Origin: Shigella phage Sfin-1
Sequence record: NC_047998.1
DNA length: 50,403 bases
Reading direction: 5' to 3' (one strand)
In this document: one piece after another, positions 14,903 through 35,682 of the stretch
How the letters are laid out: each line of letters begins with the position of its first letter
Numbering within the stretch: the stretch's first letter is position 1
Made by a program: the position numbers and the translations under genes
The notes under the pieces: model-generated
Told to the model about the DNA's origin: nothing
Database searches by the model: none
What the model saw: the letters and a program-made list of their open reading frames with translations, nothing else

Positions 14903-15097
14903 TTATGCCTCAGCAAAGTAAGTGTTAAAGCCCTTGAGTTTGTAGTCGCTACCTACGCGCACCACGTTCCAGGTAAGGCCAGAGTGATATGCAACCATAT
15001 CTTCAAGGTCGATCGTGATTTCGGTTCCTTTCTTGAACAGACCCTTTTCATGAGTTGAGTCGCGCTGAACAACAACCACATCAATTTGCGTTTCCAT
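14903..15097 (-). CDS. Hypothetical small protein (64 aa)
   Basis: Start moved to the ATG at 15097, which has a GAGGA RBS. Confidence 0.4.
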   Translation of the reverse strand: METQIDVVVVQRDSTHEKGLFKKGTEITIDLEDMVAYHSGLTWNVVRVGSDYKLKGFNTYFAEA

Positions 15098-15129
15098 CTT
15101 CGTTTCCTCTGTATCGTGTCGATGAAAAG

Positions 15130-15173
15130 ATAATACCCGATCCGCTCGACCGGGCTTTAACAAAAAGTGCTAT
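15130..15173 (-). promoter_or_regulatory. Early promoter cassette (TAGCACTTTTTGTTAAAGC plus 22 bp plus TATTAT)
   Basis: Same architecture; CCCGGTCGAGCGGATCGGG hairpin. Confidence 0.5.
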
Positions 15174-15187
15174 TTCACCTATCAGAG

Positions 15188-15703
15188 TTACAGTCCACAC
15201 TTTTCAATATGTGCTTTCATCTGGCGCACGATCTCATTCACATCGCGAACCATTAACTCGCTATCGGATAGCTTGCTAACATCAACATCAAACGAATCCA
15301 GGCAGTCGGCCAGGCTAACTTTTTTCCGGCTACGGCGTTTCTTCACCGGAACCTCTTCGTCTGTAACGATAACGGTTATCATCGTGATTGCCGCGTCATT
15401 CCGGCCTACCTTCACCTTTGCCACCTTGCCGTACTTGCAAAAGTGGCGGGTAATGATCGGAGTAATGAAAGCAGACTTGAATCGCCTCTCTACCTCAGCT
15501 TGGTTCTGGTTCACCCATCCGGTAGCGCCTCGCTCCACCTCATCATCTGAAATATCCTGATCTCGGAAGTAAAATTTTACCGCCTCTCTCGCCATATCAT
15601 CAGCCACGAAAGAGAACTCGGTCATGCCTTTGTCGCGGTACATTGCATCGCAGGTTAGTCGAATCATGTCGGTGATTTTTAATTCCTGATTGGTATTGCT
15701 CAT
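15188..15703 (-). CDS. Hypothetical protein (171 aa), first gene of the leftward early array
   Basis: GAGGATGG RBS; lies immediately next to the divergent control region. Confidence 0.45.
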   Translation of the reverse strand: MSNTNQELKITDMIRLTCDAMYRDKGMTEFSFVADDMAREAVKFYFRDQDISDDEVERGATGWVNQNQAEVERRFKSAFITPIITRHFCKYGKVAKVKVGRNDAAITMITVIVTDEEVPVKKRRSRKKVSLADCLDSFDVDVSKLSDSELMVRDVNEIVRQMKAHIEKCGL

Positions 15704-16145
15704 AATCCATCCTCATTTGTCTATTGATGTGTAAATGGTGTCATAACATGTCAACAATTGCCATTGTGACAGCGCAATGCAGGGCTGTCAATGCCTGCGA
15801 GCCAATTTTAAGCTGTGTAACATTTGTCTAGCTGTCTAGAGTCCCCATAGAAATATATGACTCTCAAAAAAGTACTGTATATATAAACATGCAGATAGAA
15901 ATATGCCAACAGTACGCTAGACAATGTAAGACGGCTATACACAACTATTACAATATAATTATCTATATATATAAATATAAAAAAAACACTATATATATTA
16001 TATATATACATATATCCATATGTCTATTGTGGGGCGTCACAGTGCGTAATTTTGTCACAAGTGCGATTCTAGACAAATATTACAGTCGTGACAAGTTAAG
16101 GTGTAATCGATAGCACGTTTTGCTAAAAATGGAGATGACCACCAG
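15704..16145. promoter_or_regulatory. Divergent early control region A: TA-rich tract and six TGTCTA half-sites (four direct, two inverted)
   Basis: Non-coding strand-switch region; TGTCTA at 15719, 15825, 15834, 16021 and TAGACA at 15918, 16067; about 60-bp (TA)n-like tract at 15955..16015; degenerate promoter dyad at 16111..16128. Confidence 0.55.
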
Positions 16146-16390
16146 GTGAACCGGGTAACACTAAATCCTCCCTCTCACAATCATTGCATTCCAAGCAACA
16201 ATCACATCAACAGTTGCACACCATGCAACAATCACATTTCATCATTCGAGATCAATTGGGATCGCAATTATTCCAGATATTCCATTGCTGGTGGAATAAT
16301 GAGCAACTATTGGAATAGCATTTTTTGCAACATATCAGCCCTGCCGATAGGGTATGATTCATCTCATCAACCAATCATAGGAATCACGCA

Positions 16391-16603
16391 ATGGAACCAA
16401 AATTTGAATGTGCCGTGCAATGCATTAGCGTTAGCACCGACAGCTTCACGAATCAATCAGTGTATGAGATCTACCTTATTGATGGTGGGTACTTCGCTAC
16501 TGACAATCAGCAAAATCAGATCGGCGTTTTCCGTTCAATGAATGGATGGGATCGCTTCCTTACCAATAACGGGCAGACGGTATTCAAAGAGGTAACGAAA
16601 TGA
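16391..16603 (+). CDS. Hypothetical protein (70 aa)
   Basis: AGGA RBS; ATGA-coupled to the downstream methyltransferase. Confidence 0.4.
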   Translation: MEPKFECAVQCISVSTDSFTNQSVYEIYLIDGGYFATDNQQNQIGVFRSMNGWDRFLTNNGQTVFKEVTK

Positions 16604-17304
16604 AATTAATCTGGTCGCTATTTGACGGTTCCGGTCTTGCTGGTCATGAACTGGCTAAGCAAGGTCACAAGGTGATGTGCTTCAACTTTGACGGAGCAGA
16701 TCACGGAGATTACGAAAAGTATAACGCCAGGGTTGAGCATCCGAACATTGAGTATGTGAACGTCTTTATTGATGAGAAGTTCGAACGTGACGCGATCTCG
16801 GGAGTGTATGGCAAGCCGGATTTTATTATGGCCTTCCCTCCTTGCACTGACCTGGCTGTTAGTGGCGCTAGTCACTTTGCAAGAAAGCGTGAGCGTGATC
16901 CGTTATTCCAGGAGAAGGCTGTCGCCACCGCCCGGATTGCCGCGAACATTGGAGATAGCCTTGGCGTGACTTACATCATTGAGAATCCGGTGAGCGTCCT
17001 GTCGTCTGCGTGGAGAAAACCAAATCACTCCTTCAATCCCTGGGAGTATGGCGGCTATCTTCCTGAGAATGACTCACACCCCTGGTTCCCGATGTATATT
17101 GCGCCGCGCGATGCTTACCCGAAGAAAACTTGTCTTTGGACCTCTGACGATTTTGTCATGCCCGAGAGAAAACCTGTAAGCCTACCTGACGGGTACTCTG
17201 CACAGCACAGTAAGCTAGGCGGCAAGTCCGCAAAGACTAAGCTGATACGCTCCCTGTCGCCCAGGGGATTTTTTAAAGCGATCGCGGATAGCACTTTTTG
17301 TTAA
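16600..17304 (+). CDS. Putative DNA (cytosine-5) methyltransferase
   Basis: Motif I-like LFDGSG, PC dipeptide (PPCTD) as candidate catalytic Cys, ENV-like IIENP; short for the family. Confidence 0.45.
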   Translation: MKLIWSLFDGSGLAGHELAKQGHKVMCFNFDGADHGDYEKYNARVEHPNIEYVNVFIDEKFERDAISGVYGKPDFIMAFPPCTDLAVSGASHFARKRERDPLFQEKAVATARIAANIGDSLGVTYIIENPVSVLSSAWRKPNHSFNPWEYGGYLPENDSHPWFPMYIAPRDAYPKKTCLWTSDDFVMPERKPVSLPDGYSAQHSKLGGKSAKTKLIRSLSPRGFFKAIADSTFC

Positions 17305-20143: not shown

Positions 20144-21712
20144 ATGTTTAATATTAAGCCAAAACTGAATTACCAACAGATTATTGAGATCGCCAATAGT
20201 ACTGGAGTTAATCCGGTGGCGATCGCAATTCGTGAAAACAGCTATGGTGACTCAGTTTCATTTTGGCAAGATCCGATCGATATCAATAGCGGCAACGATA
20301 AGTTCCCTCTGATTTCGTTAGGTGGCGATAACCTGGTATTCGAATATGCAAAAGCAAAGGCCGAGTCTGTACAGTTCCCTGTTTCGTCTGCGTACGCTCA
20401 TTTCATTGGGTGCATCTCAGCCGCGATGCTCGGGAAGTTTTGGGTGCAATATCACGGAGAAGAACAACCAACCGCTCTTTACATGGTAATCAGCCAGCCA
20501 CCGTCAACAGGTAAATCTGCGATTAACTCCGCAGCGATTACGCCTATGCGCGCAGAGATTCAGCGACTGAATGAAGAGCGAAAAAAGGAACGTATCCGTT
20601 TAACCAGTCAGCTACGCCAGGTCGAGAAGGAAATTAAAAACGACCCGAAGGGTAACACGACGGCAGCGCTATACGAGGACAAAGAAAAACTGGAAGAGAA
20701 AATCAAGAAGATGGCTGATATTGTTTTCGCGGTATCAGATCCTACACCAGAAGGTCTAGCGAAAGTAGCTGCTGTTCAAGGTCATTTCTCCGTAATCTCT
20801 GATGAGGCGACAGCAATCAATACATTGCTCGGCCTGACTTATGGTGGTTCAGACAAGAAATCAAATAGTGAGCTTATCCTTAAGGCGTGGGATAAAAACC
20901 ATATGGAGGTAGCGCGTTCCAACCAGGATAACAACTTGTCCCTTTGCCCGGTCGGTTCCATCTGCGTTATTGCGCAGGATGAAACAATCAAGGGTATCAT
21001 GGACGCAGGCCAACGAGGCATCGGCGTATCTGAGCGCTTCCTTCTTGTTCGTGAGGAACCTCTTTTAGGTACTCGTATCCTTTGCGATGAAAATGGTGAT
21101 GCACTGTATAAGGAAGTCGATCGAGGATTGGTGAGTAAATATTATCGACTCGTGCACAACATTATGAAGGAGGAAAACGTTGTTCTTTCTGTAAGTCGTA
21201 ATGCTATGCGTGAATTAAACCTTGCGCGTCAGGCGATGGAGCCGGATTTCGCCGCAGGTGGGAAATACTCTCACTCAATGCTACGCGGTCATCTCGGAAA
21301 GTTCGATAAGCACGCCTTGCGTATTGCTTCAGTTCTCCACACGATCAAGAATTGGGAGGGTGAATCACCGAACCGTTCCAACCGTGAGATTGACCTTGAA
21401 ACGATGCAGGAAGCAATCATGATCTTCAATGAGCTTTCCAGGACTTATCTGTCGTCTGCCAGCGCTGCCGGGTATGCTGGTGATGAGGCTGAATCTCGTA
21501 AGCTGATTGATGTTATCACTGAGATCGCAAAGAAGAATAAAGGGCGCGCTCCTATTCATAGCATCGTTGCAAAGTGCCGGAACGTTACTCCGTTCAACGG
21601 TCAACAGAAAGTATCTGAGAGAATAGATAGCCTGCTGATCACGCTCGAAGAGATGAACTACACTTGCCGCATTGATGATATTGTTTTCATCAATCCTCGA
21701 CTGATGGGTTAA
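20144..21712 (+). CDS. Large P-loop protein (putative replication-associated ATPase, DUF3987-like)
   Basis: Walker A-like QPPSTGKSA; start at the ATG with AAGGAG RBS; largest early gene. Confidence 0.4.
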   Translation: MFNIKPKLNYQQIIEIANSTGVNPVAIAIRENSYGDSVSFWQDPIDINSGNDKFPLISLGGDNLVFEYAKAKAESVQFPVSSAYAHFIGCISAAMLGKFWVQYHGEEQPTALYMVISQPPSTGKSAINSAAITPMRAEIQRLNEERKKERIRLTSQLRQVEKEIKNDPKGNTTAALYEDKEKLEEKIKKMADIVFAVSDPTPEGLAKVAAVQGHFSVISDEATAINTLLGLTYGGSDKKSNSELILKAWDKNHMEVARSNQDNNLSLCPVGSICVIAQDETIKGIMDAGQRGIGVSERFLLVREEPLLGTRILCDENGDALYKEVDRGLVSKYYRLVHNIMKEENVVLSVSRNAMRELNLARQAMEPDFAAGGKYSHSMLRGHLGKFDKHALRIASVLHTIKNWEGESPNRSNREIDLETMQEAIMIFNELSRTYLSSASAAGYAGDEAESRKLIDVITEIAKKNKGRAPIHSIVAKCRNVTPFNGQQKVSERIDSLLITLEEMNYTCRIDDIVFINPRLMG

Positions 21713-27438: not shown

Positions 27439-29453
27439 TCCGGGATATCCTCCATACCGAAATCTTTGCGTGAAATAATATCTTCTTTCTTCTGGTTGCG
27501 TCTATGAGTAACGCGTACCGGATGCGCTATATGATGAGCGTATTGCACGATCTTGATAGCGTTCTTCATTCCGATAAAGTAGCGACGCATTTTAGGATCT
27601 GATACGTGAGGTAATACTCCTTTCGTTTTCCATAGCGTACCGCAAATCTTAGAGTCTGACTCAGGGAAGAATTTTTCATACGCCTTGAACTCATCACCAT
27701 CGTCGTTAATAAGTGTGTATTTGTATATCACACCCTTTTGGTTTTTGGTTAACGTAACTTCAAAATTCTTGACCTCGTACCAGTCATTCTTAGTGTACGC
27801 CTTACCGGATAACTTAAGGTTAGGATCAACAAGAGAAACATCGCAACAGCGACATACTCGGGCAACAACGTCATTCTCGGCACCGCACCCTTTAACAAGA
27901 ATTTTCCCGGTACGTTCATCAACCTGGTCCTCGCAAATCTGAGAAGTCCAGAAATGATCGCAGCGTTCACCGTCGATAACGTTAACGCATCGGCGAGCGT
28001 AGAAGCTATTTACGCAACCACATTTCGGACACTTTTTCGGGTCTTTTCCGTTCTCAAATCGCTTCTGGAACTGAGCCTGCTCAAGTATAGGATCGAAATA
28101 AAGCTGCCCCAACTCATCCATCGTGCCTGCGAAATCCCATACAAGATGGTCTTGCTTAACCATCCCTTCAGCAACCTGCCATGATTTAAGAAGTCGCATA
28201 CCCCTACCCAAAAGCTGAATCAGCAAGGTGAGAGATCCTATCTTGCGAAGTATTACACTGAAATCCCAGTTTGGAACGTTAACGCCAGTAGTTAGCGCCA
28301 TGACCTGAAAGGTGTATTTAATTTTCCCTGCCCTCACATCATCAAGAATCTTCTTGCGCGTTTTAGTGTCTGTGTCGCCAGTAATAATTGCATATGTGCT
28401 TCCAGGCGGTAGTGCCGCTGCCGCCTCTTTGCAGTGACGCACCCCAGCGCATGTAATCAGGACTGCGTTACGCTCTTCAGCCTTTTTAGCAACCATTTGC
28501 ATGATTCGCTGAGTAAGAGATTTATCATGAAGGATCTCATCTTCCATTGCCTTCATATCTTTCTCTGTAAAGTCCTGTACCCCATCCTCGCTTGATGCCT
28601 TAAATTTATCAAGATCGTAGTGAACTCCGTCCGTCGAGCCGAATATAGTAGGAACAACTGAGCCAAACTCAATAAGGTAGTTGGTGTCTATATCAGTAAC
28701 GCGCTCACGCCAGAAGCCTAACGCCTTTGGATTCTCAACAAGAATAGGAACTACGCCACGAAATTCAGATCCAGTCATACCAAATATTCTGAGGTCGTGA
28801 CCGTGAGTTTCTTTGCAGCGGCGCATCATTTCCATGATTACGATCGTGTATTGGCTTCGCTTAGTTCCAAGTAGAGGCTTCCCATCATTACCAATCAGAG
28901 GAACCTCCCCATTCATAATGATTTTTCCCTTCTCTTCCCGCATCTGTTCCATCGTTTCCTTGCCATCTATGGCTTGTGCAAGGTCTTCCCAATCCACCTG
29001 GTGACATTCATCTATCCCGATTACGTGAGGGACAAAATCAGCTAGCTCATTATTTAAACCATTTGCAACAGTACCCTCAGAGCCTACCACGATCGGGAAG
29101 TAGCAAGACTTGATTCCAAGTGACGCTGAGAATATAGAGTTAGTCACCCCGAAATTGTCGATCTCTTCACTATCCTGATCGACAATCTCACCCTGGCGTG
29201 CCAGCACAAGCATTTTCAAGCCCATTTTTTGACACTGCTTTGCAACCATAGCAAAAATGATGGTCTTACCCGCCGATACTGACGCTTTAACAAAGAATGG
29301 GTGCTCATAATTTGATAGGCGTTTTGCGATCTCAGCATAAGCAACAACCTGGTACGGATACGGAACGACCTCACCAACAGTGAATCGTTCTTGAGTGCGT
29401 TTTATATAGTCCTCGCCAAGTAATGCGATTTGCTTTTTGATGTTAATTGTCAC
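27435..29453 (-). CDS. Superfamily-2 DNA helicase with C-terminal zinc-ribbon
   Basis: Walker A SAGKT, motif II DECH, C-terminal CPKCGC...C..C cluster; GTG start with AAAGGA RBS. Confidence 0.8.
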   Translation of the reverse strand: MTINIKKQIALLGEDYIKRTQERFTVGEVVPYPYQVVAYAEIAKRLSNYEHPFFVKASVSAGKTIIFAMVAKQCQKMGLKMLVLARQGEIVDQDSEEIDNFGVTNSIFSASLGIKSCYFPIVVGSEGTVANGLNNELADFVPHVIGIDECHQVDWEDLAQAIDGKETMEQMREEKGKIIMNGEVPLIGNDGKPLLGTKRSQYTIVIMEMMRRCKETHGHDLRIFGMTGSEFRGVVPILVENPKALGFWRERVTDIDTNYLIEFGSVVPTIFGSTDGVHYDLDKFKASSEDGVQDFTEKDMKAMEDEILHDKSLTQRIMQMVAKKAEERNAVLITCAGVRHCKEAAAALPPGSTYAIITGDTDTKTRKKILDDVRAGKIKYTFQVMALTTGVNVPNWDFSVILRKIGSLTLLIQLLGRGMRLLKSWQVAEGMVKQDHLVWDFAGTMDELGQLYFDPILEQAQFQKRFENGKDPKKCPKCGCVNSFYARRCVNVIDGERCDHFWTSQICEDQVDERTGKILVKGCGAENDVVARVCRCCDVSLVDPNLKLSGKAYTKNDWYEVKNFEVTLTKNQKGVIYKYTLINDDGDEFKAYEKFFPESDSKICGTLWKTKGVLPHVSDPKMRRYFIGMKNAIKIVQYAHHIAHPVRVTHRRNQKKEDIISRKDFGMEDIPE

Positions 29454-35156: not shown

Positions 35157-35682
35157 TTCGTTTATCTCCCTCGTTTACGATGAATCCATTATAGCCATTA
35201 ACAGCGTTTAGTCAATCGAATACATGTAATTGGTGTGTAATTGCGTGTCTATATCGCTCAAGTTACAACCAGCGCCAATGTAATCAATTACTTAATCCTG
35301 TTTTTATGTTGTGTATATTGCGTAATACTTGTAACCGCTTTTTCTTAGAAATACAAAGATATCCATGAATAGAATCAAGATTGATTATATTTTGAACAAA
35401 TATGATAGAAATTTGACGAATCAATCAAATCACCTGTTACACGATATACAACTGTTACACAACAATAATTATATATATAAAGCTAAAATTAAATATTATC
35501 TATCTATATATATTATATAGAGTTTTTATCATATCCCCCTGCTGTCGGATGGGGTTGATTTTGTAACACCCGTTCCGGTTACAAAAATAGACACCTGTTA
35601 CACGAAAAAATTGTAATCGCGCTATTGCAATAAAAGTAAATGCGACATACAATGAAATCACACTAACGACGAGGACATACAA
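35157..35682. promoter_or_regulatory. Divergent control region B: TA-rich tract, repeated CTGTTACAC / GTTACA half-sites, TTGCAA-17-TACAAT promoter
   Basis: Strand-switch region; CTGTTACAC at 35433, 35451, 35595; GTTACA/TGTAAC core at least 7 times; shares a 16-bp TA-rich element (CTATATATATTATATA) with region A. Confidence 0.55.

What the first reader, a model, noticed from the sequence alone, without database searches (positions are those of the whole stretch)
15704..16145. Divergent early control region A with six TGTCTA half-sites and a long TA-repeat tract
This 440-bp non-coding strand-switch region separates the leftward and rightward early arrays. It contains TGTCTA at 15719, 15825, 15834 and 16021 and the inverted TAGACA at 15918 and 16067; two direct copies are adjacent (TTGTCTAGCTGTCTAGAG). 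A TGTCA/TGACA cluster lies at 15730..15800, and a 60-bp alternating TA tract (ATATATATAAATATAAAAAAAACACTATATATATTATATATATACATATAT) lies at 15955..16015. This looks like an operator array and/or an origin-like DNA-unwinding element controlling divergent early transcription.
Basis: seen in the sequence. Interest (0 to 1): 0.65.

Follow-up and report, generated by a model that had tools for sequence, protein, structure and literature searches.

The report
Origin-like repeat element in T1-like phage
This non-coding stretch of a T1-like phage holds the most easily melted DNA in the genome, flanked by short repeats, and the same design recurs at a second site and in distant relatives, so it is a testable candidate for the still-unmapped replication origin of these phages rather than a simple array of six identical switches.

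Summary
The window is a nearly complete T1-like phage (Tunavirus, 99.9% identical to Shigella phage Sfin-5). There are six TGTCTA copies in 358 bp (14 in the whole window), a 93% A+T tract, and no conserved coding.

The six hexamers are not one class.
- Sites 2, 3 and 4 form an inverted pair. In other phage types this pair is replaced, in step and at the same positions, by a different motif.
- Site 6, and site 2 with its flank, are copies of a composite repeat, TA(G/T)ACA-N2-TGTTACA.
- Site 5 is TGTATA in most relatives.
- Site 1 lies in a 5' leader.

The A+T tract is the least stable DNA in the genome. The right half of the region is a collinear paralogue of a second element at 35.4 kb. Klebsiella phage KL3 and phage TLS each have the same two elements, with their own lineage-specific repeats.

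Small terminase is 98-99% identical across the motif types, so it does not read the type-specific repeats. The phage helicase carries a C-terminal winged-helix domain.

Best reading (about 45%): an iteron-plus-unwinding-element origin, one of two, combined with early promoters. Main rival: an operator or promoter control region. Nothing was tested experimentally.

The parts
15188..15703 (-). First leftward early gene (171 aa), homologue of T1 ST77. It has a type-variable N-terminal domain, a basic linker KKRRSRKK and a conserved C-terminal part.
   Evidence: identity is about 90% within a type, 53% between types A and B, and 20-24% to types C and D. PHROG 11083, function unknown. Pfam gives only sub-threshold DUF7174. 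The AlphaFold model has pLDDT 84 with no convincing fold match.
15718..15723 (+). TGTCTA 'site 1', inside the predicted 5' leader of the ST77-like mRNA, just upstream of its ribosome-binding site.
   Evidence: Invariant in type A. Type C phages have TTGTCTAT twice at the same place.
15763..15791 (-). Sigma-70-type promoter for the ST77-like gene: TTGACA, 17 nt, TG-n-CACAAT.
   Evidence: 10 of 12 matches, with TG before the second hexamer. Annotated as a promoter in phages SA12KD and SA30RD. The -35 hexamer is kept at this position in the other types.
15815..15839 (-). Left repeat cluster. On the - strand it reads as the composite repeat CTAGACAAATGTTACAC (15815-15831, = site 2 plus flank), followed by a second TGTCTAG (site 3, 15833-15839).
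   Evidence: At this alignment position, other types carry TGTTAATCG x3 (T1), TGCAACCGA x2 (SH6, AV106, DELF2) or GGTGTACACA (IME347, L027).
15874..15890 (.). Conserved near-palindrome ACTGTATATATAAACAT between the inverted pair. Its function is unknown.
   Evidence: conserved in types A and B, and partly in the IME347/L027 type and in L028.
15917..15932 (+). Inverted partner of the left cluster: CTAGACAATGTAAGAC (site 4).
   Evidence: It changes in step with the left cluster in every type while its flanks stay alignable.
15937..15953 (+). Weak copy of the composite repeat, ATACACAACTATTACAA, abutting the A+T tract.
   Evidence: 3 mismatches. It aligns with ATATACAACTGTTACAC of the second element.
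15944..16030 (.). A+T tract (87% A+T) with the conserved core CTATATATATTATATA. It is the candidate DNA-unwinding element and includes the non-conserved TGTCTA 'site 5' at 16021.
   Evidence: Least stable 60-100 bp stretch in the window, z = 5.6-6.2. Nearly invariant across types A and B. Site 5 is TGTATA in most relatives.
16033..16065 (+). GTCACAGTGCG / GTCACAAGTGCG direct repeat containing ATTTTGTCACA.
   Evidence: ATTTTGTCACA aligns with ATTTTGTAACA of the second element.
16069..16085 (+). Composite repeat CTAGACAAATATTACAG (site 6).
   Evidence: The homologous position reads GTAGACAACTGTTAACAC in ADB-2 and ATATACAATGATTAACAC in T1. This is therefore a conserved element, not a type-specific one.
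16110..16128 (+). Copy of the known T1/TLS 21-nt direct repeat ATAGCACnnnTTGnTAAAA. This copy lacks the usual downstream -10 element ('orphan').
   Evidence: (24 copies in the window, 0.18 expected), and the TLS paper PMC11447400.
16229..16230 (.). Point at which the reference T1 record is opened. T1 base 1 equals window 16229, reading leftward. The terminal repeat annotated at T1 1-2800 therefore begins here and runs through the finding.
16314..16358 (+). Degenerate direct-repeat-type promoter (AATAGCATTTTTTGCAACA ... GGGTATGAT) for the first rightward gene.
   Evidence: The TAT(G/A)(A/G)T element is conserved in all relatives.
35386..35636 (+). Paralogous second element ('region B'), between the recE operon and cor. 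It has CTGTTACAC x3, the composite ATA(G/T)ACAnCTGTTACAC x2 and a 90% A+T tract.
   Evidence: near-invariant in window, T1 and SH6; alignment score 120 against 53.5 +/- 7.7 for shuffles; second least stable DNA in the genome.
20144..21709 (+). DUF3987 helicase with a C-terminal winged-helix domain. It is the candidate reader of the conserved repeats (inferred).

Best explanation
The finding is a composite cis-acting element whose core most likely works as a replication origin or origin-accessory site. It is one of two paralogous copies in the genome.

Shown:
- An A+T tract of about 85 bp (15944-16030) is the least stable duplex in the genome.
- On both sides it is bracketed by short repeats from a small vocabulary that is nearly confined to this region and to a second element at 35.4 kb: TA(G/T)ACA, TGTnACA and the composite TA(G/T)ACA-N2-TGTTACA.
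- The two-element design, at the same two syntenic positions, recurs in three Drexlerviridae lineages, each with its own repeat.

Inferred mechanism:
- A phage protein binds the flanking repeats, melts the A+T tract, and lets the phage primase and the host replisome start. The best candidate is the DUF3987 helicase, through its C-terminal winged-helix domain.
- This would resemble the P4 alpha protein and the PICI/SaPI Pri-Rep systems, whose origins are two sets of iterons around an A+T-rich region.

On the left, the region also holds the sigma-70 promoter of the first early gene and an inverted repeat pair (15815-15839 against 15917-15932). The sequence of this pair is swapped as a unit between phage types, together with the N-terminal domain of that gene's product. 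I read this pair as the binding sites of that ST77-like protein, for autoregulation or origin control. This is the weakest step.
For: 1. The A+T tract is the least stable 60-100 bp stretch in the window (z 5.6-6.2), in T1 and in SH6. The second least stable stretch is region B in each. The same two positions are the two extremes in Klebsiella phage KL3 and in TLS.

2. Window 15878-16129 aligns collinearly with 35386-35636 at score 120, against 53.5 +/- 7.7 (maximum 78) for shuffles.

3. The repeat vocabulary is concentrated in the two regions.
- TA(G/T)ACA: 34 in the window, 9 in A and 4 in B.
- TGTnACA: 11 in the window, 3 in A and 4 in B.
- GTTACA: 27 in the window, 7 in B.
- The composite repeat has 5 hits at 3 or fewer mismatches against 0.21 expected, and 4 of them lie in A and B.

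4. The repeats are lineage-specific but the same at both loci within a genome.
- KL3 has 9 copies of TTAGGTAA in 50 kb, 4 in its region A and 3 in its region B, and no GTTACA in either region.
- TLS uses GTGAACA/TGGAACA at both loci.

5. Region B is near-invariant among window, T1 and SH6, as are the helicases, the primase and the HTH protein (97-99% identity).

7. [quoted passage not shown] No origin has been found in T1-like phages (PMC11447400; PMC7718038).

8. For the type-specific pair, the motif changes in step at the left cluster and at site 4, within alignable flanks, in five types. Of 77 T1 proteins, only ST77 differs three ways between types A, B and C. The downstream neighbour genes do not co-vary.
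Against: - There is no replication data of any kind.
- A+T tracts and repeats are also typical of strong promoter regions. In the Tunavirus genomes both elements lie at points where transcription diverges, although in KL3 region B lies between two genes of the same orientation.
- There are no DnaA boxes.
- Two copies are unusual for an origin, though P4 ori/crr and SPP1 oriL/oriR are precedents (from my own knowledge).
- A winged helix is a generic fold, and P4 alpha's origin-binding domain was not among the top 60 matches.
- The tandem copies are 8-9 bp apart, much closer than the classical iteron spacing of about 22 bp (from my own knowledge).
- The link between the ST77-like protein and the repeats is imperfect. 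P0055 and P0050 are 79% identical in the N-domain yet sit next to different motifs. P0055 is only 49% identical to the window's protein yet shares TGTCTAGC.
- The ST77-like N-domain is mildly acidic (pI about 5-5.9) and has no recognisable DNA-binding fold.
- The gene is physically adjacent to the repeats, so co-variation could be mere linkage.
Confidence: 0.45

Rival explanations
1. Transcriptional control region. The repeats are operators or activator sites, and the A+T tract is an UP-element, a bent-DNA element or an H-NS-binding element that sets the strength and timing of the divergent early promoters. The ST77-like protein autoregulates by looping between the inverted pair. This is essentially the first reader's 'operator array'.
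For: - The region separates leftward and rightward early genes.
- A strong sigma-70 promoter lies 33-48 bp from the left cluster.
- Further promoter-like sites overlap the repeats. TAGACA at 16026 is the -35 of an 11-of-12 match, and TAGAAT at 16066-16071 is a -10.
- The inverted pair is 82-113 bp apart in the different types and brackets a conserved spacer, as in loop-forming operators.
- In region B the element lies about 30-60 bp upstream of a good cor promoter.
- The type-specific pair co-varies with the adjacent early gene.
Against: - The number of promoter-like matches in the region is no greater than in shuffles (7 against 4.5 +/- 2.3).
- The flanking genes have their own core promoters outside the A+T tract.
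- 24 early and middle transcription units use a different, known direct-repeat promoter.
- In KL3, region B lies between two genes of the same orientation, directly downstream of the primase gene.
- A near-pure A+T tract of 60-85 bp that is the genome-wide stability minimum in four genomes goes beyond what an UP element needs.
- The ST77-like protein has no recognisable DNA-binding fold.
Confidence: 0.3
2. Packaging initiation (pac) region. The repeats are the recognition sites at which terminase assembles before making the first cut of a headful packaging series.
For: - The T1 reference record is opened at window 16229/16230, and its annotated terminal repeat runs leftward through the finding.
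- Several other records are opened between window 16139 and 16242.
- One paper states that the T1 pac site lies in this untranslated region (PMC7718038).
- Repeats flanking a bendable A+T stretch resemble the P1 pac and SPP1 pacL/pacR layouts (from my own knowledge).
Against: - Small terminase is 98.3% (window) and 99.4% (SH6) identical to that of T1, and large terminase is 99% identical, although the three phages carry three different motifs at the left cluster and site 4. Terminase therefore cannot read those repeats.
- The second element at 35.4 kb has the same design, but T1 is described as having a single pac site.
- DNA better conserved across types lies to the right of the finding, around the T1 junction (16104-16240). 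That stretch is the more plausible terminase target.
- In TLS the exact pac assignment rested on resemblance to P22 pac, not on end sequencing.
Confidence: 0.1
3. Nucleic-acid structure. The inverted pair (15815-15832 against 15916-15932) forms a long-range stem in a transcript or in single-stranded DNA, for example a processing site or a primosome-type signal. The between-type 'motif swaps' would then be compensatory changes that keep the stem.
For: - The arms are complementary over 8-14 bp in every type, although their sequence differs.
- The + strand folded as DNA gives -18.8 kcal/mol against -9.3 +/- 2.4 for shuffles, z = -4.0.
Against: - Tandem direct copies (2-3 per type), and further copies elsewhere in the region in either orientation, are not explained by a single stem.
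- The RNA fold is only marginal, z = -2.1.
- The inner helices predicted in the window are not kept in T1.
- There is no Rfam match.
- The stem has a loop of 85-113 nt and no terminator-like tail.
Confidence: 0.08
4. Chance clustering of an A+T-rich hexamer in an A+T-rich spacer, with no function.
For: - Window-wide, TGTCTA is not over-represented: 14 found against 19.8 expected.
- Some hexamer reaches 6 copies in about 7% of local simulations.
- Site 5 is a minority variant.
Against: - The repeats change in concert at fixed positions across five types.
- A second locus is paralogous.
- The design recurs in KL3 and TLS with other repeats.
- The non-coding DNA here is more conserved than neighbouring genes.
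Confidence: 0.02

Closest known systems
Replication origins of phage-inducible chromosomal islands (E. coli PICIs, staphylococcal SaPIs) with their Pri-Rep primase and helicase
   Same: Two sets of short repeats flank an A+T-rich presumed melting site (PMC6092414). The repeat sequence is element-specific. The replication proteins are a primase plus a helicase. Here the helicase carries a C-terminal winged helix.
   Different: No replication function has been shown here. The element is present twice per genome. It is not adjacent to the helicase or primase genes in Tunavirus, although region B abuts the primase gene in KL3. The repeats are a mixed vocabulary rather than one clean iteron.
Satellite phage P4 ori plus crr, read by the alpha primase-helicase (from my own knowledge)
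   Same: Two separate cis regions carry the same short repeats. The T1 primase is annotated as similar to P4-type alpha proteins.
   Different: The P4 details are recalled from memory, not checked. In T1-like phages the primase and the helicase are separate proteins. P4 alpha's origin-binding domain was not among the top structural matches.
Lambdoid O protein and ori iteron specificity modules (from my own knowledge)
   Same: A type-variable N-terminal domain is joined to a conserved C-terminal part, and both are exchanged between phages together with a linked set of short repeats next to an A+T-rich stretch.
   Different: Lambda's iterons lie inside the O gene, whereas here the repeats lie upstream of the gene. 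The ST77-like protein has no detectable similarity to O (the BFVD match to a GpO N-terminal protein has E = 0.49, which is not significant). Co-variation is imperfect.
T1/TLS 21-nt direct repeat aaATAGCACnnnTTGnTAAAA (PMC11447400)
   Same: Bases 16110-16128, inside the finding, match the consensus exactly. The window holds 24 copies, all oriented with transcription.
   Different: This copy lacks the extended -10 element that follows the other copies at about 18-22 nt. The TGTCTA, GTTACA and A+T-tract elements are unrelated to this repeat.
pac sites built from repeats, such as P1 pac hexamers and SPP1 pacL/pacC/pacR (from my own knowledge)
   Same: Short repeats on both sides of a central region, located close to the conventional packaging end of the T1 genome.
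   Different: Terminase is invariant across the motif types. A second copy exists far from the genome end.

Membership tests
Iteron-type replication origin (plasmid, PICI, P4 or lambdoid kind) | An A+T-rich, easily melted segment | tested here: met
   Bases 15944-16030 are 87% A+T. It is the least stable 60-100 bp stretch in the genome (z 5.6-6.2) in the window, T1 and SH6, and one of the two least stable stretches in KL3 and TLS.
Iteron-type replication origin (plasmid, PICI, P4 or lambdoid kind) | Multiple copies of a short repeat next to or flanking the A+T-rich segment, rare elsewhere in the genome | tested here: met
   (TA(G/T)ACA 13 of 34, TGTnACA 7 of 11, GTTACA 8 of 27 in the two regions). 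KL3: 7 of 9 TTAGGTAA copies. The spacing and mix of repeats are less regular than for classical iterons.
Iteron-type replication origin (plasmid, PICI, P4 or lambdoid kind) | A cognate initiator protein that binds the repeats | not testable with these tools
   Only candidates were found. One is the helicase with a C-terminal winged helix, whose termini vary between lineages. The other is the ST77-like protein.
Iteron-type replication origin (plasmid, PICI, P4 or lambdoid kind) | Replication initiates there, or the fragment supports replication | not testable with these tools
   No marker-frequency or functional data are available. The literature states that the origin of T1-like phages is unknown.
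Iteron-type replication origin (plasmid, PICI, P4 or lambdoid kind) | Host DnaA boxes (common but not universal) | tested here: not met
   TTWTNCACA has no match in either region: 2 in the whole window against 5.1 expected.
Headful pac site | Coincides with the end of the first packaged genome | tested here: inconclusive
   The T1 record junction is at window 16229/16230, 84 bp to the right of the finding. How that end was determined could not be read, because the T1 genome paper is not held.
Headful pac site | Recognised by the small terminase, so its sequence should track terminase specificity | tested here: not met
   Small terminase is 98.3-99.4% identical across three motif types. This excludes the type-specific repeats only. 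The conserved repeats are not excluded.
Operator array of an early repressor or regulator | Repeated sites that overlap or bracket promoters | tested here: inconclusive
   Consensus promoter matches overlap some repeats, but their number is no greater than in shuffles. There are no transcript data.
Operator array of an early repressor or regulator | A cognate sequence-specific DNA-binding protein | tested here: inconclusive
   The ST77-like protein co-varies with the inverted pair, but there is one counter-example, no DNA-binding fold and a mildly acidic N-domain.
T1/TLS direct-repeat promoter element | Match to ATAGCACnnnTTGnTAAAA, oriented with transcription | tested here: met
   Bases 16110-16128 match with 0 mismatches on the + strand.
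T1/TLS direct-repeat promoter element | An extended -10-like element about 18-22 nt downstream, followed by a gene | tested here: not met
   There is no such element after 16128, and the next gene starts 262 nt away.

The most novel reading that the evidence does not exclude
Virulent T1-like phages carry a two-site origin system of ori/crr type. It is read by the winged-helix tail of their DUF3987 helicase. One of the two sites (this finding) is additionally fitted with an exchangeable specificity module: the N-terminal domain of the first early protein (ST77-like) together with its own inverted repeats. At least four or five alternative specificities circulate in nature. This module would act as a lambda O/ori-like or immunity-like determinant of replication or early-expression compatibility between co-infecting relatives.
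Probability: 0.2. Interest if true: 0.75.

Novelty: new member of a known kind. Interest (0 to 1): 0.55.

Why it matters
T1 is one of the original 'T phages', and T1-like phages are notorious laboratory and fermentation contaminants. Even so, recent genome papers still state that no replication origin has been found (PMC11447400, PMC7718038).

This analysis turns a vague 'AT-rich intergenic region' into two precisely bounded, family-wide candidate origins, a defined repeat vocabulary and two named candidate binding proteins. The question becomes directly testable with marker-frequency sequencing, gel-shift assays and deletion mutants.

It also matters for annotation and engineering. The region next to the conventional genome start is not a safe place to insert cargo. 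The six TGTCTA copies should not be annotated as one operator set. If the swap of the inverted pair together with the ST77-like N-domain reflects a real specificity module, it would be a rare case of replicon-like or immunity-like type diversity in a strictly lytic phage family.

Tried and rejected
- **Rfam** search of 15000-17000 at E of 1 or less found nothing.
- **Small terminase** as reader of the type-specific repeats is rejected: 98-99% identity across three motif types.
- **Neighbouring early genes** as the co-varying factor are rejected. The window's second gene is 95% identical in the type B phage ADB-2, and IME18's second gene is 93% identical to that of type C AV106.
- **HTH protein (ST23 homologue)** as reader of GTTACA has no support: there is no GTTACA in its own divergent promoter region.
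- **DnaA boxes**: none.
- **LexA-box reading** of ACTGTATATATAAACAT was considered and not adopted. Its second half is ACAT, not ACAG, and the IME347/L027 and L028 versions diverge further.
- **Wider sampling of protein-allele and motif pairs.**
  - IMG/VR protein scans returned mostly the GenBank genomes already in hand, and no new motif types.
  - A metagenome DNA-pattern scan gave 4 hits and no new types.
  - tblastn of the phage collection with P0055 found only IME347 as a close allele.
- **blastn of both elements** against 5,426 complete E. coli genomes gave no match, so no satellite or island shares these sequences.
- **Pfam on the helicase termini** found nothing. A protein search with the helicase C-terminal fragment alone found only one protein.
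- **The T1 genome paper** (Roberts et al. 2004) is not held, so I could not establish how T1 base 1 was defined.
- **GC skew** follows gene orientation and gives no information about replication.
Full report
**Identity of the window**

The window is an almost complete genome of a T1-like siphovirus (Drexlerviridae, Tunavirus). Bases 15000-17000 are 99.9% identical to Shigella phage Sfin-5, and 64 phage records match. The finding covers the non-coding DNA between a leftward 171-aa ORF (15188..15703) and the rightward genes.

**Check of the observation**

- TGTCTA is at 15718, 15825, 15833 and 16021 on the + strand, and at 15918 and 16070 on the - strand. That is 6 of the 14 copies in the window.
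- The quoted TA tract is at 15965-16015, the adjacent pair TTGTCTAGCTGTCTAGAG is at 15824, and TGTCA/TGACA occurs 6 times against 0.7 expected.
- In Markov simulations of the region, 6 TGTCTA copies never occurred in 20,000 trials. However, some hexamer reaches 6 copies in about 7% of trials. The single sequence is therefore suggestive rather than decisive.
- The mechanical ORFs over the tract are broken by indels in close relatives. Rfam finds nothing.

**Genomic context**

- The reference T1 record aligns with its base 1 at window 16229, reading leftward. It annotates bases 1-2800 as the terminal repeat. The finding therefore lies 84-525 bp inside the conventional packaging end. Several other records are opened between window 16139 and 16242.
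- One paper places the T1 pac site 'in the corresponding region' (PMC7718038). In TLS the final pac assignment rested on resemblance to P22 pac (PMC11447400).
- The same papers say that no origin of replication has been found in these phages.

**Comparison with relatives: the left half**

I aligned 16 Tunavirus regions and inspected further loci. The left half of the region exists in distinct types. Distances below are measured from the start codon of the leftward gene.

| Type (example) | Tandem + copies | Inverted copy |
|---|---|---|
| A (window) | TTGTCTAG at 121, 129 | 214 |
| B (T1) | TGTTAATCG at 115, 124, 133 | 215 |
| C (SH6, AV106, DELF2) | TGCAACCGA at 113, 122 | 225 |
| IME347 and metagenomic contig L027 | GGTGTACACA at 111 | 224 |

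The flanks stay alignable: TTTTAAG on one side, TCCCnAnAnAAATAT and AAGACnnGCTATACA on the other. The left cluster and its inverted partner have therefore been replaced in step. They must be read by one factor, or pair with each other.

**Which protein could read the type-specific pair**

- I compared all 77 T1 proteins with the window (type A) and with SH6 (type C). Small terminase is 98.3% and 99.4% identical. Large terminase is 99% identical. The primase, both helicases and the HTH protein are 97-99% identical. Only ST77, the gene next to the repeats, differs three ways.
- ST77 identity is about 90% within a type, 53% between A and B, and 20-24% to C and to Klebsiella phage KL3.
- The break between type-specific and shared sequence falls inside the gene. 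The N-terminal 115 or so residues travel with the repeats, while the C-terminal part (basic linker KKRRSRKK plus two helices) recombines freely.
- The downstream neighbour genes do not co-vary.

This makes the ST77-like protein the only candidate type-specific reader, but the case is weak.
- P0055 and P0050 are 79% identical in the N-domain, yet sit next to TGTCTAGC and GGTGTACACA respectively. P0055 shares TGTCTAGC with the window at only 49% identity.
- The N-domain is mildly acidic.
- Pfam gives only sub-threshold DUF7174.

**The right half and the second element**

- Site 6 (16069-16085, CTAGACAAATATTACAG) is not type-specific. The same position reads GTAGACAACTGTTAACAC in ADB-2 and ATATACAATGATTAACAC in T1.
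- It is a copy of a composite repeat, ATA(G/T)ACA(A/C)CTGTTACAC. This repeat occurs twice, perfectly, at 35444 and 35587. Site 2 with its flank (15815-31, - strand) and 15937-53 are further copies (5 hits against 0.21 expected).
- Window 15878-16129 aligns collinearly with 35386-35636, between the recE operon and cor. The score is 120, against 53.5 +/- 7.7 for shuffles.
- The shared order is: GATAGAAAT, composite repeat, A+T tract with core TATATATATTATATA, ATTTTGTnACA, composite repeat, TGTAATCG, TTGC(T/A)A.
- These two places are the two least stable stretches of duplex in the window, in T1 and in SH6 (z 5.0-6.4).
- The second element is near-invariant among the three phages.
- The repeat vocabulary is concentrated in the two regions.

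**Other lineages**

- In Klebsiella phage KL3, the two least stable stretches are again the early divergent region (44.2 kb) and the region upstream of the recE-like gene (28.5 kb). Both carry TTAGGTAA(G): 7 of the 9 copies in 50 kb. Neither region contains GTTACA.
- In TLS (subfamily Tempevirinae), the two minima are at the genome start and upstream of recE. Both carry GTGAACA/TGGAACA/AGAACAA and are collinear paralogues.

A pair of A+T-rich elements whose repeats differ between lineages but match within a genome points to one lineage-specific trans-acting reader for both elements.

**Candidate reader of the conserved repeats**

- The phage has a zinc-ribbon primase, a DUF3987 helicase, an SF2 helicase and a Cro-like HTH protein.
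- The DUF3987 helicase is 99.4% identical across types A, B and C. Between lineages its first and last eighths are the most divergent parts (33-48% identity).
- This is the arrangement I remember for the P4 alpha protein and for SaPI/PICI Rep proteins. [quoted passage not shown]
- The fold is generic, and binding was not tested.

**Promoters in the region**

- The ST77-like gene has a sigma-70-type promoter, TTGACA-17-TGnCACAAT, at 15791-15763. It is annotated as a promoter in two relatives.
- Nearly all other early and middle genes are preceded by the known 21-nt direct repeat ATAGCACnnnTTGnTAAAA, followed by an extended -10-like element. There are 24 copies against 0.18 expected, all co-oriented with their genes. 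This repeat was described for TLS.
- One exact copy lies in the finding at 16110-16128 but lacks the -10 element. A degenerate copy with TATGAT at 16314-16358 serves the first rightward gene.
- Promoter-like matches inside the finding are not more numerous than in shuffles.

**Weighing the explanations**

- *Origin-like element* (about 0.45). This reading explains the most: the genome-wide stability minimum, the repeats on both sides, the confinement of the repeats to two paralogous loci, their lineage-specific concerted change, a helicase with a variable winged-helix tail, and the lack of any other origin candidate.
- *Transcriptional control region* (about 0.30). It remains a serious rival, and the two readings are not exclusive.
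- *pac site*. It is excluded for the type-specific repeats by the invariance of terminase. It is made unlikely for the rest by the second copy. The DNA around 16104-16240 is the better pac candidate.
- *Stem-forming structure*. This explains the inverted pair (DNA fold z = -4.0) but not the tandem and extra copies. The RNA fold is marginal.
- *Chance*. This is excluded by the comparative data.

No step of any mechanism has been tested experimentally.

Noticed in passing
window 6605-31076, 46539 and 50302 (24 sites, listed): There are 24 copies of the 21-nt repeat ATAGCACnnnTTGnTAAAA (0.18 expected), each oriented with its gene. Most are followed 18-22 nt later by an extended -10-like (T/C)GnTATAGT, which often sits inside a small hairpin, and then by CATCGAAACGA and a ribosome-binding site. 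They look like a dedicated early/middle promoter class. The spacing from the TTG to the -10 element is too long for a normal -35 hexamer.
   Followed up: partly
window 35386-35636: A second A+T-rich element lies between the recE operon and cor. It has CTGTTACAC x3 (unique in the genome) and is near-invariant in T1 and SH6. It is a paralogue of the finding's right half and the second least stable DNA in the genome.
   Followed up: yes
window 15874-15890: The conserved near-palindrome ACTGTATATATAAACAT (TGT-N8-ACA) resembles a LexA box but has ACAT in place of ACAG. It is conserved in types A and B and lies in the middle of the inverted pair.
   Followed up: partly
window 16267-16317: Four copies of TATTCCA (two direct, two inverted) lie just upstream of the first rightward promoter. 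They are conserved as far as Klebsiella T1-like phages. This could be a regulator site or a terminase site.
   Followed up: no
window 16184-16238: The direct repeat TTGCAttCCAaGCAACAATCACAT / TTGCAcaCCAtGCAACAATCACAT straddles the point where the T1 record is opened (16229/16230). This stretch is more conserved across types than the flanking genes and is a plausible pac core.
   Followed up: partly
window 16129-16149: A mini-ORF, ATGGAGATGACCACCAGGTGA (6 codons; 9 codons in most relatives), starts at the 3' end of the orphan direct repeat. Its sequence is strongly conserved, but there is no obvious ribosome-binding site.
   Followed up: no
window 14903-15163 (- strand): This 86-aa ORF matches Pfam PF25180, 'Phage antiviral trigger protein Gp54' (E = 1.4e-35). 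It is shuffled among phage types independently of the neighbouring region.
   Followed up: partly
window 20144-21709 (+ strand): The DUF3987 helicase has a confidently predicted C-terminal winged-helix domain that Pfam does not annotate. Its N- and C-termini are the most divergent parts between phage lineages.
   Followed up: yes
locus L019 (Shigella phage vB_SsoS_008), around positions 860-930: This is a mosaic region. It has a type A repeat array, plus an inserted fragment of the T1-type upstream region and a shortened ST77-like ORF. In ADB-2 the ST77-like gene appears frameshifted. The gene may therefore be dispensable in some phages.
   Followed up: no
locus L096 (TLS), 1-588 and 28707-29118: The TLS repeats CGTGAACA/TGGAACA at both A+T-rich elements resemble the P4 alpha-binding octamer TGTTCACC, as I remember it. 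The TLS paper reports that no iterons were found anywhere in the genome.
   Followed up: partly
window 16600-17304 (+ strand): A DNA methyltransferase gene (PHROG 757) sits in the rightward early array. It is absent from T1 at this position, and its length varies among relatives (234 aa, 182 aa or split).
   Followed up: no
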